Shown in pieces: positions 24,402-33,799 of a stretch of DNA of 64,000 nucleotides. A program made the translations under genes and the position numbers. The stretch comes from an uncultured delta proteobacterium (lineage in GTDB: Bacteria > Desulfobacterota > Binatia > Binatales > Binataceae), in assembly GCA_963794325.1 (NCBI GenBank), contig CAWCDG010000002.1, positions 512,001-576,000 of the forward strand, written 5' to 3'. Position 1 is the first letter of the stretch. Every line of letters starts with the position of its first letter. Under the pieces are notes generated by a model. That model searched no databases. It saw only the letters and a list, made by a program, of their open reading frames with translations, and had not been told where the DNA came from.

Positions 24402-24962
24402 ATGGCACGTGAACGGACTACCGCCGCTTTCGGTAAAGTTACGATCGTGGGCAGCATCTAACGACCTGTCGCATCTTAACCCATTCACTTTCGAGTTCGT
24501 GTGCTTGAAAAGGGCGGAAGGCCGCAGCAACGATATGCAATCGACGTCCTTTTCAGCTGGCACTGTTTCACCCGCGGAATCGCACCAGGTGAAAACTTCT
24601 CCAGGGCACTGACTTACAGTCGCGGCCGCGAGACTCGCCTGTTCGACGAGCGCCGTTATCATCTCTCAAAGAAATTACCAGGCATCCTCGGAGGTATCGG
24701 CTCGCGAAAGTGCTTCCACACGGGTAGAGGCAACTTCTTCACGGTCGAACTGCTGGACGAGGAAGGAAACCGGATCGAATATACGATCTTTTTCAAAGTG
24801 TCGCGGCGTTCGAAGCCTCGCGAGCTTACTCTGCGAGTTGAGAGCGCTTACGTCCGTGGCGGTCGCGTGCCGCTTAGGCGGTCGCATCCGCCGCGTCCGA
24901 TTCGCTTCTCGGTCATCGCGTACAACACGGCCACAGGAAAGCGAATCAAGGAGCCAAAATGA
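24402..24962 (+). CDS. Hypothetical protein, putative RelE/BECR-like RNase; 5' part disrupted by two indels (~24460, ~24500)
   Basis: Main ORF 24501-24962 has FSWHCFTR, YTIFF, LRVESAY. Upstream pieces 'MARERTT...GSI' (same frame, TAA at 24459) and 'DLSHLNPFTFEFV' (shifted frame). Fold is inferred. Confidence 0.6.
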
Positions 24963-28930: not shown

Positions 28931-30169
28931 ATGTCCGATCGGAGGGGAGGCGCACCGATCCGGTTCGCGCCGCGAGAGGGTTACGAGTCAGGGCGAGAGG
29001 GAATCGACGAGTATCGCCGCGCTTGGCGATATCGTGCGGCGCTCTCGATGCTCGCGTTCGTTCTACTGATTGCAAGTCCGGCGCGGCCGGCGAGTACCGA
29101 CAACCAGGACAACGACAACGACTTCGCGGCACCGCTCGCGGCCAACAAAATCGAGTACTCGTTCGTGTTCATGGGATGTAACCGGATCTTGAAGGGCGAC
29201 ATATCGCCTGACAATCCGAGCACTGCGAATCTGGCCCAACTCGAGCGCAGCTTCACGGAAATCGCGGCGCTCAGGCCGCGCCCCAAGTTTGTCGTTTTCA
29301 CCGGCGACCTGGTGGTTGGACTGACCACCGACCTGAACGTGCTGCGCAGTCAATTGGCGAGCTGGACCGACGTGTACCAAAACTCCGACCTCGGCCGGGA
29401 CCGGAAGATTCGACTGATCGCGCTCCCCGGAAATCACGAATCGCTGTTCGGCGTGAAGGGTTCGCAGCAATCGAATCCCGGCGCCGAAGCGGTATGGCTC
29501 AGCCTGATGCAACCGTATATCGCCGGCAACAATGGTCCCCCAGCCGGCGGCCCCGACAATCTGCAAACCGATCAGGCTCAGCTCACCTACTCGTTCGACT
29601 TTCGCGATTCACATTTCGTGATTCTGAACACAGATCCGTTTGGAGCAGTGGCGACGGTCCCACTTAACTGGCTCCATGGGGATTTGATGGCGGCGGTCGA
29701 GCCGACAATCACTTGAAGCATATGTTCGTGCTGGGTCATAAGCAGGCTTTTAGTCCCGCCGATTCGAACTCGGAGCAGGCGCTGGATTCCAATCCCGACA
29801 ATCGCAACCAGTTCTGGGACGAGTTGAATAATGCCGGCGTCGGCTATTACCTGGTCGCCCACGCCCACCTCTGGCACTTCAGCACGCCAGTCTCTCCGAT
29901 CTCGATGCATGCAGCACACCGTGCAAATCATCGCGGGCAACGGCGGCTCGAAGGAAGACCCGATATGGGAGGCGGCCGGCAAGGATTTCTATTACGGATT
30001 CACCCTGGTGCAAGTGCTCAAGAACGGCAAAGTGGTGATGAAGAGTTACGGCCGCGATTTCGATGCGACGAATTATCTGGCGCCGTCACCGCCGTCCCTG
30101 TTCCCAACCACGATTCGCGAGATGCTGGAGTTTCCCCAGGCCAGTAGCGGCATCTGTTCGGGACTTTAA
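28931..30169 (+). CDS. Secreted metallophosphoesterase (calcineurin-like); frameshifts near 29700 and 29910
   Basis: Motifs FTGDLV, PGNHE, LGH and AHAH are spread over three consecutive frames. Confidence 0.75.
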
Positions 30170-30214: not shown

Positions 30215-30291
30215 GCGCCCGTAGCTCAACTGGATAGAGCATCAGACTTCGGATCTGAGGGTTGGGGGTTCGAATCCCTCCGGGCGCGCCA
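30215..30291 (+). tRNA. tRNA-Arg(TCG)
   Basis: Acceptor stem gcgcccg/cgggcgc, D-arm, anticodon arm tcaga-ctTCGga-tctga, T-loop ttcgaat, encoded CCA. Confidence 0.95.
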
Positions 30292-30494
30292 CACTCCGAC
30301 GCGGGTTTCCCGCACTGCGAATATCTCGCGTATGCCTAGTGACTCCCGGAGACTCCCCGGAGGTCATCCAGCGCCGAGGTCGCTATCCTCTGGATACCGA
30401 AAGGATAGCGGGCGCGACTGTGTCATCGCCGGACCCTGTGGTGACTTGAAGTTTTGTTGTGCATGGGTAAGCCTTTCAGCAACGAGGAGGGGAA

Positions 30495-31055
30495 ATGTCA
30501 GAAAAGCAAGATGACCTTGAAGCGGTGCGCGTCGTCACAGCAGCCCTAGAACCGTTCAACACAGAGGACCGCCATAGAATCATTCGGTGGGCGTCGGAAA
30601 AGCTTGGACTTACTAAACCGCCTGTTCAAGCGATCACACCCGCACATATGACACCGCCAGCGCCGAGTTCAACTGGTTCAGGGTCTCGCGGGGGGACTAT
30701 TAAACAGTTCATTGAGCAGAAAGACCCGAAGAGCGAGAATCAATTTGCCGCCACCGTTGCCTATTACTATCAATTCGAGGCGCCTGAGAATCAAAAGAAA
30801 GAAACGATAACGAGAGAAAATCTCCTAGAAGCCTGCCGACTCGCAGACCGGCCTCGGCTGAAGAACCCGGCACAAACGCTGGTCAACGCACACGGGGCTG
30901 GGCTTCTCGATAGGGGGGAAAAAGGAACGTACAGCATCAACACGGTCGGAGAAAACCTTGTCGCAATGACTCTTCCGGCTGGCGCGGCTGTTTCCGGTAA
31001 GACCAATATGAAGCGCCCTCGCCGTGCATCCAAGCCGAAGGTCCGCCGCAAATAG
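30495..31055 (+). CDS. Hypothetical protein (short helical N-domain, linker, wHTH-like C-domain)
   Basis: GGAGG RBS; AT-richer than flanks; 'NPAQTLVNA..GLLDRGEKGTYSINTVGE' suggests a winged helix. Confidence 0.75.
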   Translation: MSEKQDDLEAVRVVTAALEPFNTEDRHRIIRWASEKLGLTKPPVQAITPAHMTPPAPSSTGSGSRGGTIKQFIEQKDPKSENQFAATVAYYYQFEAPENQKKETITRENLLEACRLADRPRLKNPAQTLVNAHGAGLLDRGEKGTYSINTVGENLVAMTLPAGAAVSGKTNMKRPRRASKPKVRRK

Positions 31056-31084
31056 GGTAAGCGTTAAGGTCCTCTGGATGCTGC

Positions 31085-31873
31085 ATGTCTGATCTGATCG
31101 AATCGATTGAGAATGCAATCTCGGAATCGAAACGTTTGCGAGCTCGTATTACAAAACTTAAATCCGCGCAGGTCCGTAATTCCGAGGACAAAGCGGTTAT
31201 CAAGGCCACCGCGTACGCTTGGTTCAGAAATCACCGTCCGGTTCTGCTAGCCGGGACTGACGAGGATTCTCTTGTTCAGTTAGATGCAGAATACAATTTC
31301 CTCGCGGACTCCTCAGAGCGCGCCACTTCGAAACTGATCTACATTCGCCAACTCAAAACGATGGTAGAGTTGCTCGTAGCACTGCGGCCCGCACTGCTGG
31401 CATGGCGCGCCAAACCGGCAAGCCCAGACGTACCACCGAACTTCGCTCCTCTAGTTCCCGATAAAGCTATGCAGGCCATTCTGGAACGGCGATGGGCGGA
31501 GTGCATAGCTTGCATCGAAGCTTCGGCTCCAATGGCCGCAACCGTAATGATGGGCGGCCTTCTTGAAACGTTACTTCTGGCCCGCATTCTTCGTGAAAGA
31601 GATAAGGACCCAATCTTCAAGGCCAACACTGCTCCAAAAGTTGCGGGTAAAGCTCTCCCACTCAAAGAATGGGGACTGCGAAATTTCATAGATGTCGCCC
31701 ACGAATTCGGTTGGATTTCGCAGGGGGCGAAGGACGTGGGTGAAGTGCTTCGCGACTATCGAAACTACGTTCACCCGCAGAAGGAATACTCACACGGCAT
31801 CAAGTTGACCGCTGAGGACGCGATAATGTTTTGGGAGATCTCTAAAAGCATTTCACGCCAGGTCATTCGCTAA
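31085..31873 (+). CDS. Hypothetical protein with C-terminal HEPN-like domain
   Basis: AATVMMGGLLE helix and RDYRNYVH motif. Confidence 0.75.
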   Translation: MSDLIESIENAISESKRLRARITKLKSAQVRNSEDKAVIKATAYAWFRNHRPVLLAGTDEDSLVQLDAEYNFLADSSERATSKLIYIRQLKTMVELLVALRPALLAWRAKPASPDVPPNFAPLVPDKAMQAILERRWAECIACIEASAPMAATVMMGGLLETLLLARILRERDKDPIFKANTAPKVAGKALPLKEWGLRNFIDVAHEFGWISQGAKDVGEVLRDYRNYVHPQKEYSHGIKLTAEDAIMFWEISKSISRQVIR

Positions 31874-31917
31874 ATGATAGCTCGCCGGGGCGCGGACACG
31901 GTTACTTAGTTCTTGAG

Positions 31918-33365: not shown

Positions 33366-33448
33366 CGGCTCGCGTACAACTGGACCTGAAGCGGGCGCGT
33401 CGCGGAAACAATTCCGCGATGCGCCCTTTTTTTGAAGGAGGGTTGCCG

Positions 33449-33799
33449 ATGATGAAGCGAATGGTGCCGAACATCTTTTACAGCAGGTTGAGCGACGGGC
33501 TCGACCTTTTCGTCACTTGCCTCGGCTTCAAGGTGCTCCACCTGAACGCGACGCTCGCGGTGATCGAACGCGACGGCGCCAAGGCGCATCTGATCGAAAA
33601 TGCGGAGTTTGCTGCGAAGGATCGCCCGCAGATCACTATCGAGACCGATGATATCGACGAGCTGTATCGCGAGATTCAATCACGAGCGCCCGAGATGCTT
33701 CATCCCAATTCGAAAACGGTCGAGAAGAAGCCGTGGGGCGCGCGCGAGTTTGGCGTCCTCGACAAGACCGACGTCTGCGTGGTGTTTCAGCAGTTCTAA
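33449..33799 (+). CDS. VOC/glyoxalase family protein
   Basis: KPWGAREF..LD motif; AAGGAGG RBS. Confidence 0.8.
   Translation: MMKRMVPNIFYSRLSDGLDLFVTCLGFKVLHLNATLAVIERDGAKAHLIENAEFAAKDRPQITIETDDIDELYREIQSRAPEMLHPNSKTVEKKPWGAREFGVLDKTDVCVVFQQF

What the first reader, a model, noticed from the sequence alone, without database searches (positions are those of the whole stretch)
30495..31873. tRNA-linked two-gene islet: wHTH-like protein + HEPN-like RNase, candidate anti-phage/TA system
Seen: two tightly linked, visibly AT-richer genes right after a tRNA, with no integrase. Gene 2 has the HEPN-type E-helix (MGGLLE) and RDYRNYVH after a helical N-terminal domain. Gene 1 has a wHTH-like domain and a basic tail. 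Known: HEPN domains are RNase effectors in many defence and TA systems, and tRNA 3' ends are integration hotspots. The partner is not an MNT antitoxin. Inference: an unnamed two-component defence system.
Basis: partly seen in the sequence, partly recalled or inferred. Interest (0 to 1): 0.7.

Follow-up and report, generated by a model that had tools for sequence, protein, structure and literature searches.

The report
Winged-helix plus HEPN RNase defence pair
Two foreign-looking genes after a tRNA gene form a widespread pair that almost always travels together, a predicted DNA-binding protein and a predicted RNA-cutting toxin, likely an untested anti-phage switch and likely a single-copy form of a class of defence systems predicted in a recent preprint.

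Summary
Gene 1 (186 aa) has a helical hairpin, a linker, a winged helix and a basic tail. Gene 2 (262 aa) has a four-helix bundle and a HEPN-like domain with conserved E161, R226, N227 and H230. Gene 1 lies directly upstream in 79 of 80 genome loci, and gene 2 is adjacent in 74 of 80 reciprocal loci; no third gene is conserved. Adjacent genes are enriched for defence/TA families (20/150 vs 4/150 distal), and some copies have attC-like sites. Neither protein matches Pfam, PADLOC, NCBIfam or PHROGs. Gene 1 is homologous over its full length to the wHTH of a wHTH-ParA-RelA-like operon, the context that defines the PRA-wHTH/'poly-wHTH' systems predicted in an October 2026 preprint, where HEPN is the commonest effector. 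So the class is predicted but untested. New here: the bundle stays with gene 1 while the nuclease is swapped (pP_pnuc_1, 3 loci), and a jumbo phage carries the hairpin alone. Best model: the wHTH protein docks on the bundle and holds the RNase off until infection. The scan had not found this pair before.

The parts
30215..30291 (+). tRNA-Arg(TCG); its 3' side is a variable cargo site in the genus
   Evidence: ARAGORN. Inserts of 0.64-14.6 kb between this tRNA and the conserved downstream gene in 16 relatives, none matching the pair by blastn
30292..30494 (+). 203-bp leader: tandem GACTCCC(C)GGA at 30341-30361, a 9-bp inverted repeat at 30381-30410, RBS at 30484-30492. Possibly a relic of an integrative element or a regulatory site (inference)
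   Evidence: Sequence; inverted repeat I19; no sigma-70 match. A similar tandem follows tRNA-Arg in L069 (by eye)
30495..31055 (+). Gene 1, 186 aa: hairpin-linker-wHTH-basic tail; homologous to the wHTH of a wHTH-ParA-RelA-like operon (PRA-wHTH-like)
   Evidence: 1430 homologs; model pLDDT 76.5; hhalign prob 97.2, E 3.7e-11 to L242
30513..30602 (+). Gene 1 residues 7-36: conserved two-helix hairpin; candidate oligomerisation or effector-docking module (inference)
   Evidence: Helices H7-18 and H23-36; R28, R31, W32, E35 at least 96% conserved in 130 pairs; occurs without the wHTH in a jumbo phage
30699..30968 (+). Gene 1 residues 69-158: winged helix-turn-helix domain
   Evidence: VIA-align Z 9.1, rmsd 2.3 A over 80 residues to 1stz; Z 7-8.4 to many PadR/MarR-type wHTH domains
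30975..31052 (+). Gene 1 residues 161-186: disordered Lys/Arg-rich tail, likely a nucleic-acid contact
   Evidence: 10 K/R here; median net charge +10 over the last 30 residues in 130 homologs; pLDDT below 55
31085..31873 (+). Gene 2, 262 aa: four-helix bundle plus HEPN-like predicted RNase
   Evidence: 1395 homologs; model pLDDT 90.9; weak DUF4145 match in 33 of 119 homologs
31085..31408 (+). Gene 2 residues 1-108: four-helix bundle, kept when the nuclease domain is swapped; candidate docking site for gene 1 (inference)
   Evidence: Generic bundle matches only. The bundle profile hits L228, L229 and L234 (E 1e-8 to 2e-12), whose C-terminal domain is pP_pnuc_1-type
31439..31870 (+). Gene 2 residues 119-262: HEPN-like domain
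   Evidence: Z 11.1, rmsd 2.7, 113 aligned to 2hsb; Z 10.0-10.3 to sacsin HEPN 3o10; Z 9.8-10.2 to HepT (5yep, 6m6w, 7bxo); Z 9.7 to Csm6'
31565..31567 (+). E161, the conserved acidic residue of the predicted active site
   Evidence: Invariant in 53 of 53 intact loci that were selected through gene 1
31751..31774 (+). R223-D-Y-R226-N227-Y-V-H230, predicted catalytic motif (Rx3H from R226, Rx6H from R223)
   Evidence: R226, N227, H230 and P231 in 53 of 53; R223 in 52 of 53

Best explanation
The two genes are a co-inherited, horizontally acquired pair that likely works as an anti-phage toxin switch: the predicted winged-helix protein would bind DNA and dock on the four-helix bundle of the predicted HEPN RNase, holding it inactive until infection releases it to cut host RNA and arrest the cell. 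Shown by my calls: gene order, strict coupling, tree congruence, foreign composition, patchy spread, predicted folds, conserved E/R/N/H residues, defence-enriched neighbours, and retention of the bundle when the nuclease is swapped. Inferred: physical docking (weak model support only), RNase activity on tRNA/rRNA (from HEPN precedent), inhibitory rather than activating polarity, and the trigger (phage DNA, host DNA damage or loss of a labile partner).
For: Coupling: gene 1 lies directly upstream in 79 of 80 loci found through gene 2, median gap 6 bp in the 75 measured. Gene 2 is adjacent in 74 of 80 loci found through gene 1; of the six misses one has gene 2 at 169 bp and five end within 250 bp of the contig edge, two of them with a clear start of gene 2. 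No third conserved gene. Trees of 130 pairs share 53 of 127 splits, including 26 of 30 strong gene-1 splits. Spread is patchy: full pairs in 4 of 47 genus genomes at four different sites, and full-length gene 1 in 3 of 401 genomes of the phylum. Adjacent genes match defence/TA Pfam families in 20 of 150 cases against 4 of 150 for genes at least 5 kb away (Fisher p=0.001; my own unblinded classification). attC-like sites follow gene 2 in 9 of 133 loci against 2 of 236 control stops. Modularity: gene 1 plus the bundle occur with a pP_pnuc_1 domain in L228, L229 and L234, while 9 HEPN-only matches in the genus lack both the bundle and gene 1 within about 1.5 kb. Complex prediction gave weak support: 0.56 against a best control of 0.01; that mark was reached by 116 of 157 solved and 2 of 215 mismatched pairs, but at 0.60 or under by only 18 of 157 solved pairs and by both mismatches; the runs agreed in at least 52% of contacts and partner pLDDT was at least 72. 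Precedent: in the type IX retron the WH protein alone mitigates HEPN toxicity and the HEPN cuts rRNA and tRNA (bioRxiv 10.64898/2026.07.14.738597, parts 1-3 of 7 read).
Against: No experiment exists. Decay is symmetric rather than toxin-first: gene 2 is intact while gene 1 is lost or broken in 3 of 78 evaluable loci (L025, L027, L034), and gene 2 is broken or oddly started in 3 of 56 evaluable loci found through gene 1. A strict antitoxin would make the first class rarer, though assembly errors or loss of expression could explain it. The invariant motif is Rx3H, outside the Rx4-6H of PMC3710099 (section 6 read), and the Ex3[KR] basic residue is absent. HEPN Z-scores near 10-11 lie in the range the tool says helical bundles can reach by common arrangement. 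I saw no conserved operator upstream by eye. Most neighbours (130 of 150) match no defence/TA family, and several copies sit between housekeeping genes.
Confidence: 0.45

Rival explanations
1. Sensor-activator: the wHTH protein binds or coats invader DNA as the primary defence and switches on an otherwise dormant HEPN by clustering it through the bundle. This is the model proposed for poly-wHTH systems.
For: Section 37 of bioRxiv 10.64898/2026.10.19.760177 proposes coating of invader nucleic acid with the effector as backup. Intact gene 2 persists without an intact gene 1 in 3 of 78 loci. Distant gene-1 homologs stand before several different effectors or alone. HepS and RAZR are non-toxic HEPN proteins activated by phage assemblies (PMC13434031, passages).
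Against: This wHTH is conserved (about 58% mean identity) and single-copy, not a rapidly diverging array. The gene order matches antitoxin-toxin operons. The closest tested HEPN+WH case has the WH as inhibitor.
Confidence: 0.3
2. Selfish addiction module: a type II toxin-antitoxin pair that stabilises cassettes and islets, or responds to stress, with no real anti-phage role.
For: About half of the 20 flagged neighbours are TA genes. attC-flanked copies exist. Copies sit between housekeeping genes with no mobility gene.
Against: The other flagged neighbours are restriction-type genes (GmrSD, HsdM, Eco57I, methylases, DUF499). No match to either gene covers the pair among 72,556 plasmid records, where addiction modules would be expected.
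Confidence: 0.15
3. Gene 2 is not an active RNase: it is an RNA- or nucleotide-binding HEPN-like regulator, or an unrelated helical enzyme, paired with a transcription factor.
For: Rx3H spacing; no Pfam HEPN hit at the gathering score; Foldseek gave no match at E 0.001 or better.
Against: E161, R226, N227, H230 and P231 are invariant in 53 of 53 independently selected loci. Several HEPN structures align over the same residues 119-262. The domain is exchanged for another predicted nuclease.
Confidence: 0.1

Closest known systems
PRA-wHTH / 'poly-wHTH' systems (Li, Burroughs, Aravind, bioRxiv 10.64898/2026.10.19.760177; computational prediction; abstract, section 16 and passages including section 37 read; supplements closed)
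   Same: An uncharacterised wHTH gene with an N-terminal extension upstream of a variable effector, most commonly HEPN. Gene 1 is homologous to the wHTH of a wHTH-ParA-RelA-like operon.
   Different: One wHTH, not an array. It is well conserved, not fast-diverging. The effector carries a four-helix bundle that is kept across nuclease swaps. The text I read does not describe this subfamily, the bundle or pP_pnuc_1; its figure and supplements might.
Type IX retron (Retron-Kva2) HEPN + WH effectors (bioRxiv 10.64898/2026.07.14.738597; parts 1-3 of 7 read)
   Same: A HEPN RNase paired with a winged-helix protein; the WH binds DNA and alone dampens HEPN toxicity; abortive infection through rRNA/tRNA cleavage.
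   Different: No reverse transcriptase or ncRNA travels with this pair. The retron WH is 245 aa with two alpha/beta HEPN-binding domains, and the retron HEPN lacks the R-H motif and the N-terminal bundle. An analogue, not shown to be a homologue.
HEPN-MNT (HepT/MntA) toxin-antitoxin
   Same: Two-gene operon with a HEPN fold (Z 9.8-10.2 to HepT).
   Different: The partner is a wHTH, not a nucleotidyltransferase; the toxin has an extra N-terminal bundle.
AbiJ-type NTD-HEPN proteins and Taranis; DUF4145 HEPN (RAZR) (PMC3710099, bioRxiv 10.1101/2024.07.02.601686 and PMC13434031, passages read)
   Same: A helical N-terminal domain fused to HEPN; Taranis is an integron cassette. ESM Atlas neighbours of a homolog include DUF4145 (36% of members) and AbiJ_NTD5 (45%) clusters.
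   Different: Those are single-gene systems; this one has an obligate partner gene. AbiJ_NTD5 is not among the 25 families listed for 119 homologs.
RnlAB / LsoAB with T4 Dmd (PMC8266594, passages read)
   Same: Anti-phage HEPN toxin with a protein antitoxin and a phage-encoded inhibitor, a precedent for the hairpin-only phage protein.
   Different: RnlA has TBP-like N-terminal domains and RnlB is an alpha/beta protein, not a wHTH; no sequence similarity was shown.

Membership tests
PRA-wHTH / poly-wHTH systems | wHTH homologous to the one encoded upstream of ParA and Tox-RelA | tested here: met
   L242 holds wHTH, ParA and a RelA-like gene in tandem. Gene-1 profile against that wHTH: hhalign prob 97.2, E 3.7e-11, 161 columns; HMM E 2.7e-16. 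RelA-like call rests on phmmer E 2e-4 to 2be3; ParA by eye. One such operon seen.
PRA-wHTH / poly-wHTH systems | Downstream effector gene, most commonly HEPN | tested here: met
   HEPN-like gene directly downstream in 79 of 80 and 74 of 80 loci; other effectors in distant homologs.
PRA-wHTH / poly-wHTH systems | Multiple wHTH copies (stated for 'several' of these systems, not all) | tested here: not met
   One gene-1 match per locus in 79 of 80 loci (L034's two hits are pieces of one broken gene). Hence filed as a single-copy variant, not as a poly-wHTH array.
PRA-wHTH / poly-wHTH systems | Match to the authors' own alignment of the domain | not testable with these tools
HEPN superfamily RNases | HEPN four-helix fold | tested here: met
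   Residues 119-262 align to 2hsb (Z 11.1, rmsd 2.7, 113), 1ufb (10.3), 3o10 (10.0-10.3), HepT (9.8-10.2) and Csm6' (9.7). Z values are moderate.
HEPN superfamily RNases | Rx4-6H motif with a polar residue after R | tested here: inconclusive
   R223-D...H230 fits Rx6H (R223 in 52 of 53), but the invariant R226-N227 gives Rx3H, and R223 is not kept in more distant relatives.
HEPN superfamily RNases | Upstream conserved acidic residue | tested here: met
   E161 invariant in 53 of 53; the typical Ex3[KR] basic residue is absent.
HEPN superfamily RNases | RNase activity as a homodimer | not testable with these tools
DUF4145 (PF13643) | Pfam gathering score | tested here: not met
   No hit for the window protein; 33 of 119 homologs at E 0.1 or better, best 6.5e-4.
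HEPN-MNT | Adjacent minimal nucleotidyltransferase | tested here: not met
   The partner is a wHTH; no other conserved neighbour.
Type IX retron | Linked reverse transcriptase and ncRNA | tested here: not met
   No conserved third gene in 80 loci. One RVT_1 hit among 300 scanned neighbours, about 6 kb away on the other strand (L072).
Type II toxin-antitoxin | Bicistron with the DNA-binding gene upstream of the toxin | tested here: met
   Median gap 6 bp; order constant.
Type II toxin-antitoxin | Direct protein-protein binding | tested here: inconclusive
   Weak support, 0.56 against best control 0.01 (calibration counts in Best explanation).
Type II toxin-antitoxin | Toxicity neutralised by the partner | not testable with these tools
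   Needs an experiment. Decay pattern is symmetric.
Systems in PADLOC-DB 2.0 | HMM match to a named system | tested here: not met
   No hit for either protein; only scattered weak hits among 119 and 120 homologs. The library dates from 2023; DefenseFinder was not available.

The most novel reading that the evidence does not exclude
The hairpin-wHTH protein and the four-helix bundle form a dedicated plug-and-socket control module that keeps interchangeable nucleases (this Rx3H HEPN, or pP_pnuc_1) off while bound to DNA. It would be a retron-free, DNA-sensing abortive-infection system, and the hairpin-only protein in a jumbo phage's CRISPR operon would be a stolen antitoxin decoy against it.
Probability: 0.2. 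Interest if true: 0.78.

Novelty: new variant of a known kind. Interest (0 to 1): 0.52.

Why it matters
This is a large family (about 1400 clusters at 90% identity for each gene, across many phyla) that Pfam, PADLOC, NCBIfam and PHROGs do not see. It is the smallest and most strictly coupled form I found of a wHTH-effector class that so far exists only as a prediction. A 1.4-kb cassette makes the open question directly testable: is the wHTH an antitoxin, as in type IX retrons, or an invader-DNA sensor, as the preprint proposes? The effector swap gives a built-in control and would give pP_pnuc_1 a testable role outside pPIWI operons. A shortened Rx3H motif would widen the HEPN active-site rule if the protein proves active.

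Tried and rejected
Family libraries: Pfam, PADLOC, NCBIfam and PHROGs gave nothing for the window proteins, apart from a spurious NCBIfam E 0.14. Sequence searches of PDB with three profiles gave nothing below E 0.02. Foldseek gave no match at E 0.001 or better in PDB or BFVD; Rok wHTH appeared only weakly (5zuz prob 0.60; a phage Rok-domain protein E 0.015), so a Rok-like silencer reading was considered and not adopted. The bundle matched only generic four-helix bundles. A search for longer, fused forms of gene 1 found one protein among 7991 candidates, which is weak evidence against fusions. Neither gene was found intact on mobile collections: plasmids gave five partial HEPN matches and no gene 1; phages gave no gene 2; IMG/VR gave one gene-2 fragment and one hairpin-only protein. 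Inter-protein covariation on 130 pairs was uninformative: top z 5.4 against 5.0-5.4 in shuffles. No conserved operator was seen by eye in the leaders; the window has no sigma-70 match and no attC-like site. A tRNA link as a family trait was rejected: most loci have no tRNA next to the pair. An integrase-mobilised island in this genome was not supported: no duplicate of the tRNA end. Expression: no RNA holder listed. Literature: seven searches found no paper describing this subfamily; 'Rx3H' with HEPN returned 0 papers; subscription journals are not covered. Earlier scan findings: none by sequence or place; the word search returned unrelated systems.

Full report
Observation. The pair is 53.0% GC in a 60.4% genome, among the lowest 0.7% of equal-length windows, with GC3 of 0.55 against 0.72-0.81 in five neighbouring genes. 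I saw no integrase nearby (by eye), and the tRNA 3' end is not duplicated in the genome.

The site. In 16 relatives of the genus the stretch between this tRNA and the conserved downstream gene is 0.64 to 14.6 kb long (one is inverted, so its length is uncertain). It holds different cargo, by eye HicB-like, HigA-like and methylase/restriction genes, and never matched the pair by blastn. Some relatives have a duplicated tRNA 3' end. The site is therefore a hotspot and the pair is one passenger. A profile search of 47 genus genomes found full-length gene 2 in four, each with gene 1, at four different sites. Full-length gene 1 was found in 3 of 401 genomes of the phylum.

Anatomy. Gene 1 folds as a two-helix hairpin (7-36), a disordered linker, a winged helix (69-158; Z 9.1 to 1stz, then PadR/MarR types) and a basic tail. 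Gene 2 folds with pLDDT 90.9 as a four-helix bundle (1-108) and a second helical domain (119-262) that aligns to HEPN structures at Z 9.7-11.1. These Z-scores are moderate, but several independent HEPN entries cover the same residues. E161, R226, N227, H230 and P231 are invariant in the 53 intact loci selected through gene 1, so the conservation does not come from my search patterns. The invariant spacing is Rx3H. The canonical motif is Rx4-6H (PMC3710099, section 6), which R223 would satisfy as Rx6H, but R223 is not kept in more distant relatives.

Coupling. Each gene has about 1400 homolog clusters. Gene 1 lies directly upstream in 79 of the 80 best of 154 genome loci. Gene 2 is adjacent in 74 of the 80 best of 169 metagenome loci, and five of the six misses are contig ends. 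All-against-all clustering of the genome loci found no third conserved gene. Trees of 130 intact pairs share 53 of 127 splits, including 26 of 30 strong gene-1 splits and 30 of 44 strong gene-2 splits. Hosts named span Acidobacteriota, Verrucomicrobiota, Planctomycetota, Bacteroidota, Pseudomonadota, Nitrospirota, Chloroflexota and others.

Context. The nearest called gene on each side matched a defence or TA Pfam family in 20 of 150 cases, against 4 of 150 for genes at least 5 kb away, drawn from 173 in 59 loci (p=0.001, or 25 against 6 with ambiguous families). Gene calling was a heuristic of mine and the classification was not blinded. attC-like sites follow gene 2 in 9 of 133 loci with enough flank, against 2 of 236 control stops, and flank both sides in two; an earlier version of the test gave 8 of 80 against 1 of 400. 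Many copies sit alone between housekeeping genes.

Modularity. Searches of three further phyla (401, 331 and 331 genomes) reached distant gene-1 homologs. Three (L228, L229, L234) are followed by proteins that match only the bundle of gene 2 (E 1e-8 to 2e-12; hhalign prob 81-88 for the two tested) and carry a different C-terminal domain: pP_pnuc_1 by Pfam for L228 and L229, and the same PADLOC nuclease model for all three. Conversely, nine HEPN-only matches in the genus lack the bundle and have no gene 1 within about 1.5 kb. So gene 1 tracks the bundle, not the nuclease. I infer that the bundle is where gene 1 acts. More distant homologs precede HEPN-wHTH or wHTH-HEPN fusions (L236, L237, L241; by eye, one weak PD-T7-3 hit), ParA plus a RelA-like gene (L242), or nothing related (L217, L238).

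Complex. The predicted pair scored 0.56 against a best control of 0.01. The tool calls this weak support: 116 of 157 solved and 2 of 215 mismatched pairs reached the mark, but at 0.60 or under only 18 solved pairs did, along with both mismatches. Runs agreed in at least 52% of contacts and partner pLDDT was at least 72. No interface was given, and covariation was uninformative.

Comparison with what is known. The wHTH of L242 aligns to gene 1 over 161 columns, hairpin included (prob 97.2), and its operon is wHTH-ParA-RelA-like. That is the context in which Li, Burroughs and Aravind define PRA-wHTH; they add that the ParA-RelA pair is often replaced by other effectors, most commonly HEPN (bioRxiv 10.64898/2026.10.19.760177; abstract, section 16 and passages including section 37). 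I could not see their figure or supplements, which may or may not include this subfamily. The class is a prediction with no experiment in the text I read. The closest tested analogue is the type IX retron, whose WH protein binds DNA and by itself dampens HEPN toxicity (bioRxiv 10.64898/2026.07.14.738597, parts 1-3 of 7), but that WH has a different architecture and needs a reverse transcriptase. Passages read in PMC13434031, PMC8266594, 10.1101/2024.07.02.601686 and 10.1101/2024.01.29.577857 describe other HEPN systems, none with this partner.

Mechanism. I commit to the toxin-switch model at 0.45: a DNA-bound wHTH protein holds the HEPN RNase off through the bundle, and infection releases it. 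Against it, decay is symmetric (3 of 78 loci with gene 1 lost or broken and gene 2 intact; 3 of 56 with gene 2 broken or oddly started), which keeps the activator model at 0.3. Two of the three broken gene-1 copies keep most of the hairpin (L025 by an in-frame deletion, L034 up to a stop), which would fit the hairpin being the neutralising part, but these could be assembly errors.

Phage hairpin. A 497-kb IMG/VR record (three contigs identical over the 2 kb compared, so one event) encodes a 112-aa protein with the gene-1 hairpin (53% identity over 43 columns, prob 98.5) fused to basic repeats. It is the last gene of a Cas7-Cas5-Csd1-helicase operon, just before a CRISPR array, and no gene 2 was found in that record. 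A decoy role is possible, by analogy to T4 Dmd (PMC8266594, passages), but hairpin-only proteins also occur in bacterial genomes (L231, L232), so a general oligomerisation module is as likely.

Verdict. A real, widespread, strictly coupled two-gene module; likely anti-phage; likely a single-copy variant of a recently predicted class; untested. Interest 0.52.

Noticed in passing
L219:1883-10100 (same in L218, L220; record G454, 497 kb): Jumbo-phage type I-C-like CRISPR operon (Cas7, Cas5, Csd1 and a helicase by Pfam, then an unknown 210-aa ORF) ending in a 112-aa protein with the gene-1 hairpin and basic repeats, followed by an array with several repeat variants. No gene 2 in the record.
   Followed up: partly
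L228:1468-2875, L229:669-2085, L234:1483-2893: Sister system: gene-1 homolog plus the same N-terminal bundle fused to pP_pnuc_1 (PF18165) with an R-x5-H-like motif, as a two-gene unit; I saw no pPIWI gene among the flanking ORFs (by eye).
   Followed up: partly
L242:691-3038: wHTH-ParA-RelA-like three-gene operon between unrelated genes.
   Followed up: yes
L236:1483-2831, L237:599-1887, L241:1150-2540, L246:5364-6721: Distant gene-1 homologs next to HEPN-wHTH or wHTH-HEPN fusions (assigned by eye); in L246 the partner is divergent and sits at the head of a cluster of TA genes.
   Followed up: partly
window 30292-31917 and L101-L118: The tRNA-Arg(TCG) 3' side is a genus-wide variable site (0.64-14.6 kb, about 19 kb in one genome) carrying TA-like, restriction-like and metabolic cargo; some genomes have a duplicated tRNA 3' end.
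   Followed up: partly
L125-L133: A wider family of HEPN-like domains with the same R-N-x-x-H-P spacing, fused to varied N-terminal domains and lacking gene 1; no Pfam or PADLOC name for those scanned.
   Followed up: partly
L231:1234-1632, L232:1495-1905: Bacterial proteins with only the gene-1-like hairpin followed by a low-complexity tail, with no wHTH and no HEPN neighbour.
   Followed up: no
window 28931-30169: The calcineurin-like phosphoesterase upstream of the tRNA appears split over three frames (28931-29716, 29713-30147, 29831-30169): possible frameshifts or sequencing errors.
   Followed up: no
window 24501-24962 and 33419-33799: A 153-aa ORF after the ABC operon and a 126-aa glyoxalase-like ORF (by eye) lie in slightly lower-GC stretches and look like further small inserted genes.
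   Followed up: no
L024:6827-7297: A second small unknown gene directly upstream of gene 1 whose start resembles other N-extension wHTH proteins (by eye); a possible two-wHTH version.
   Followed up: no
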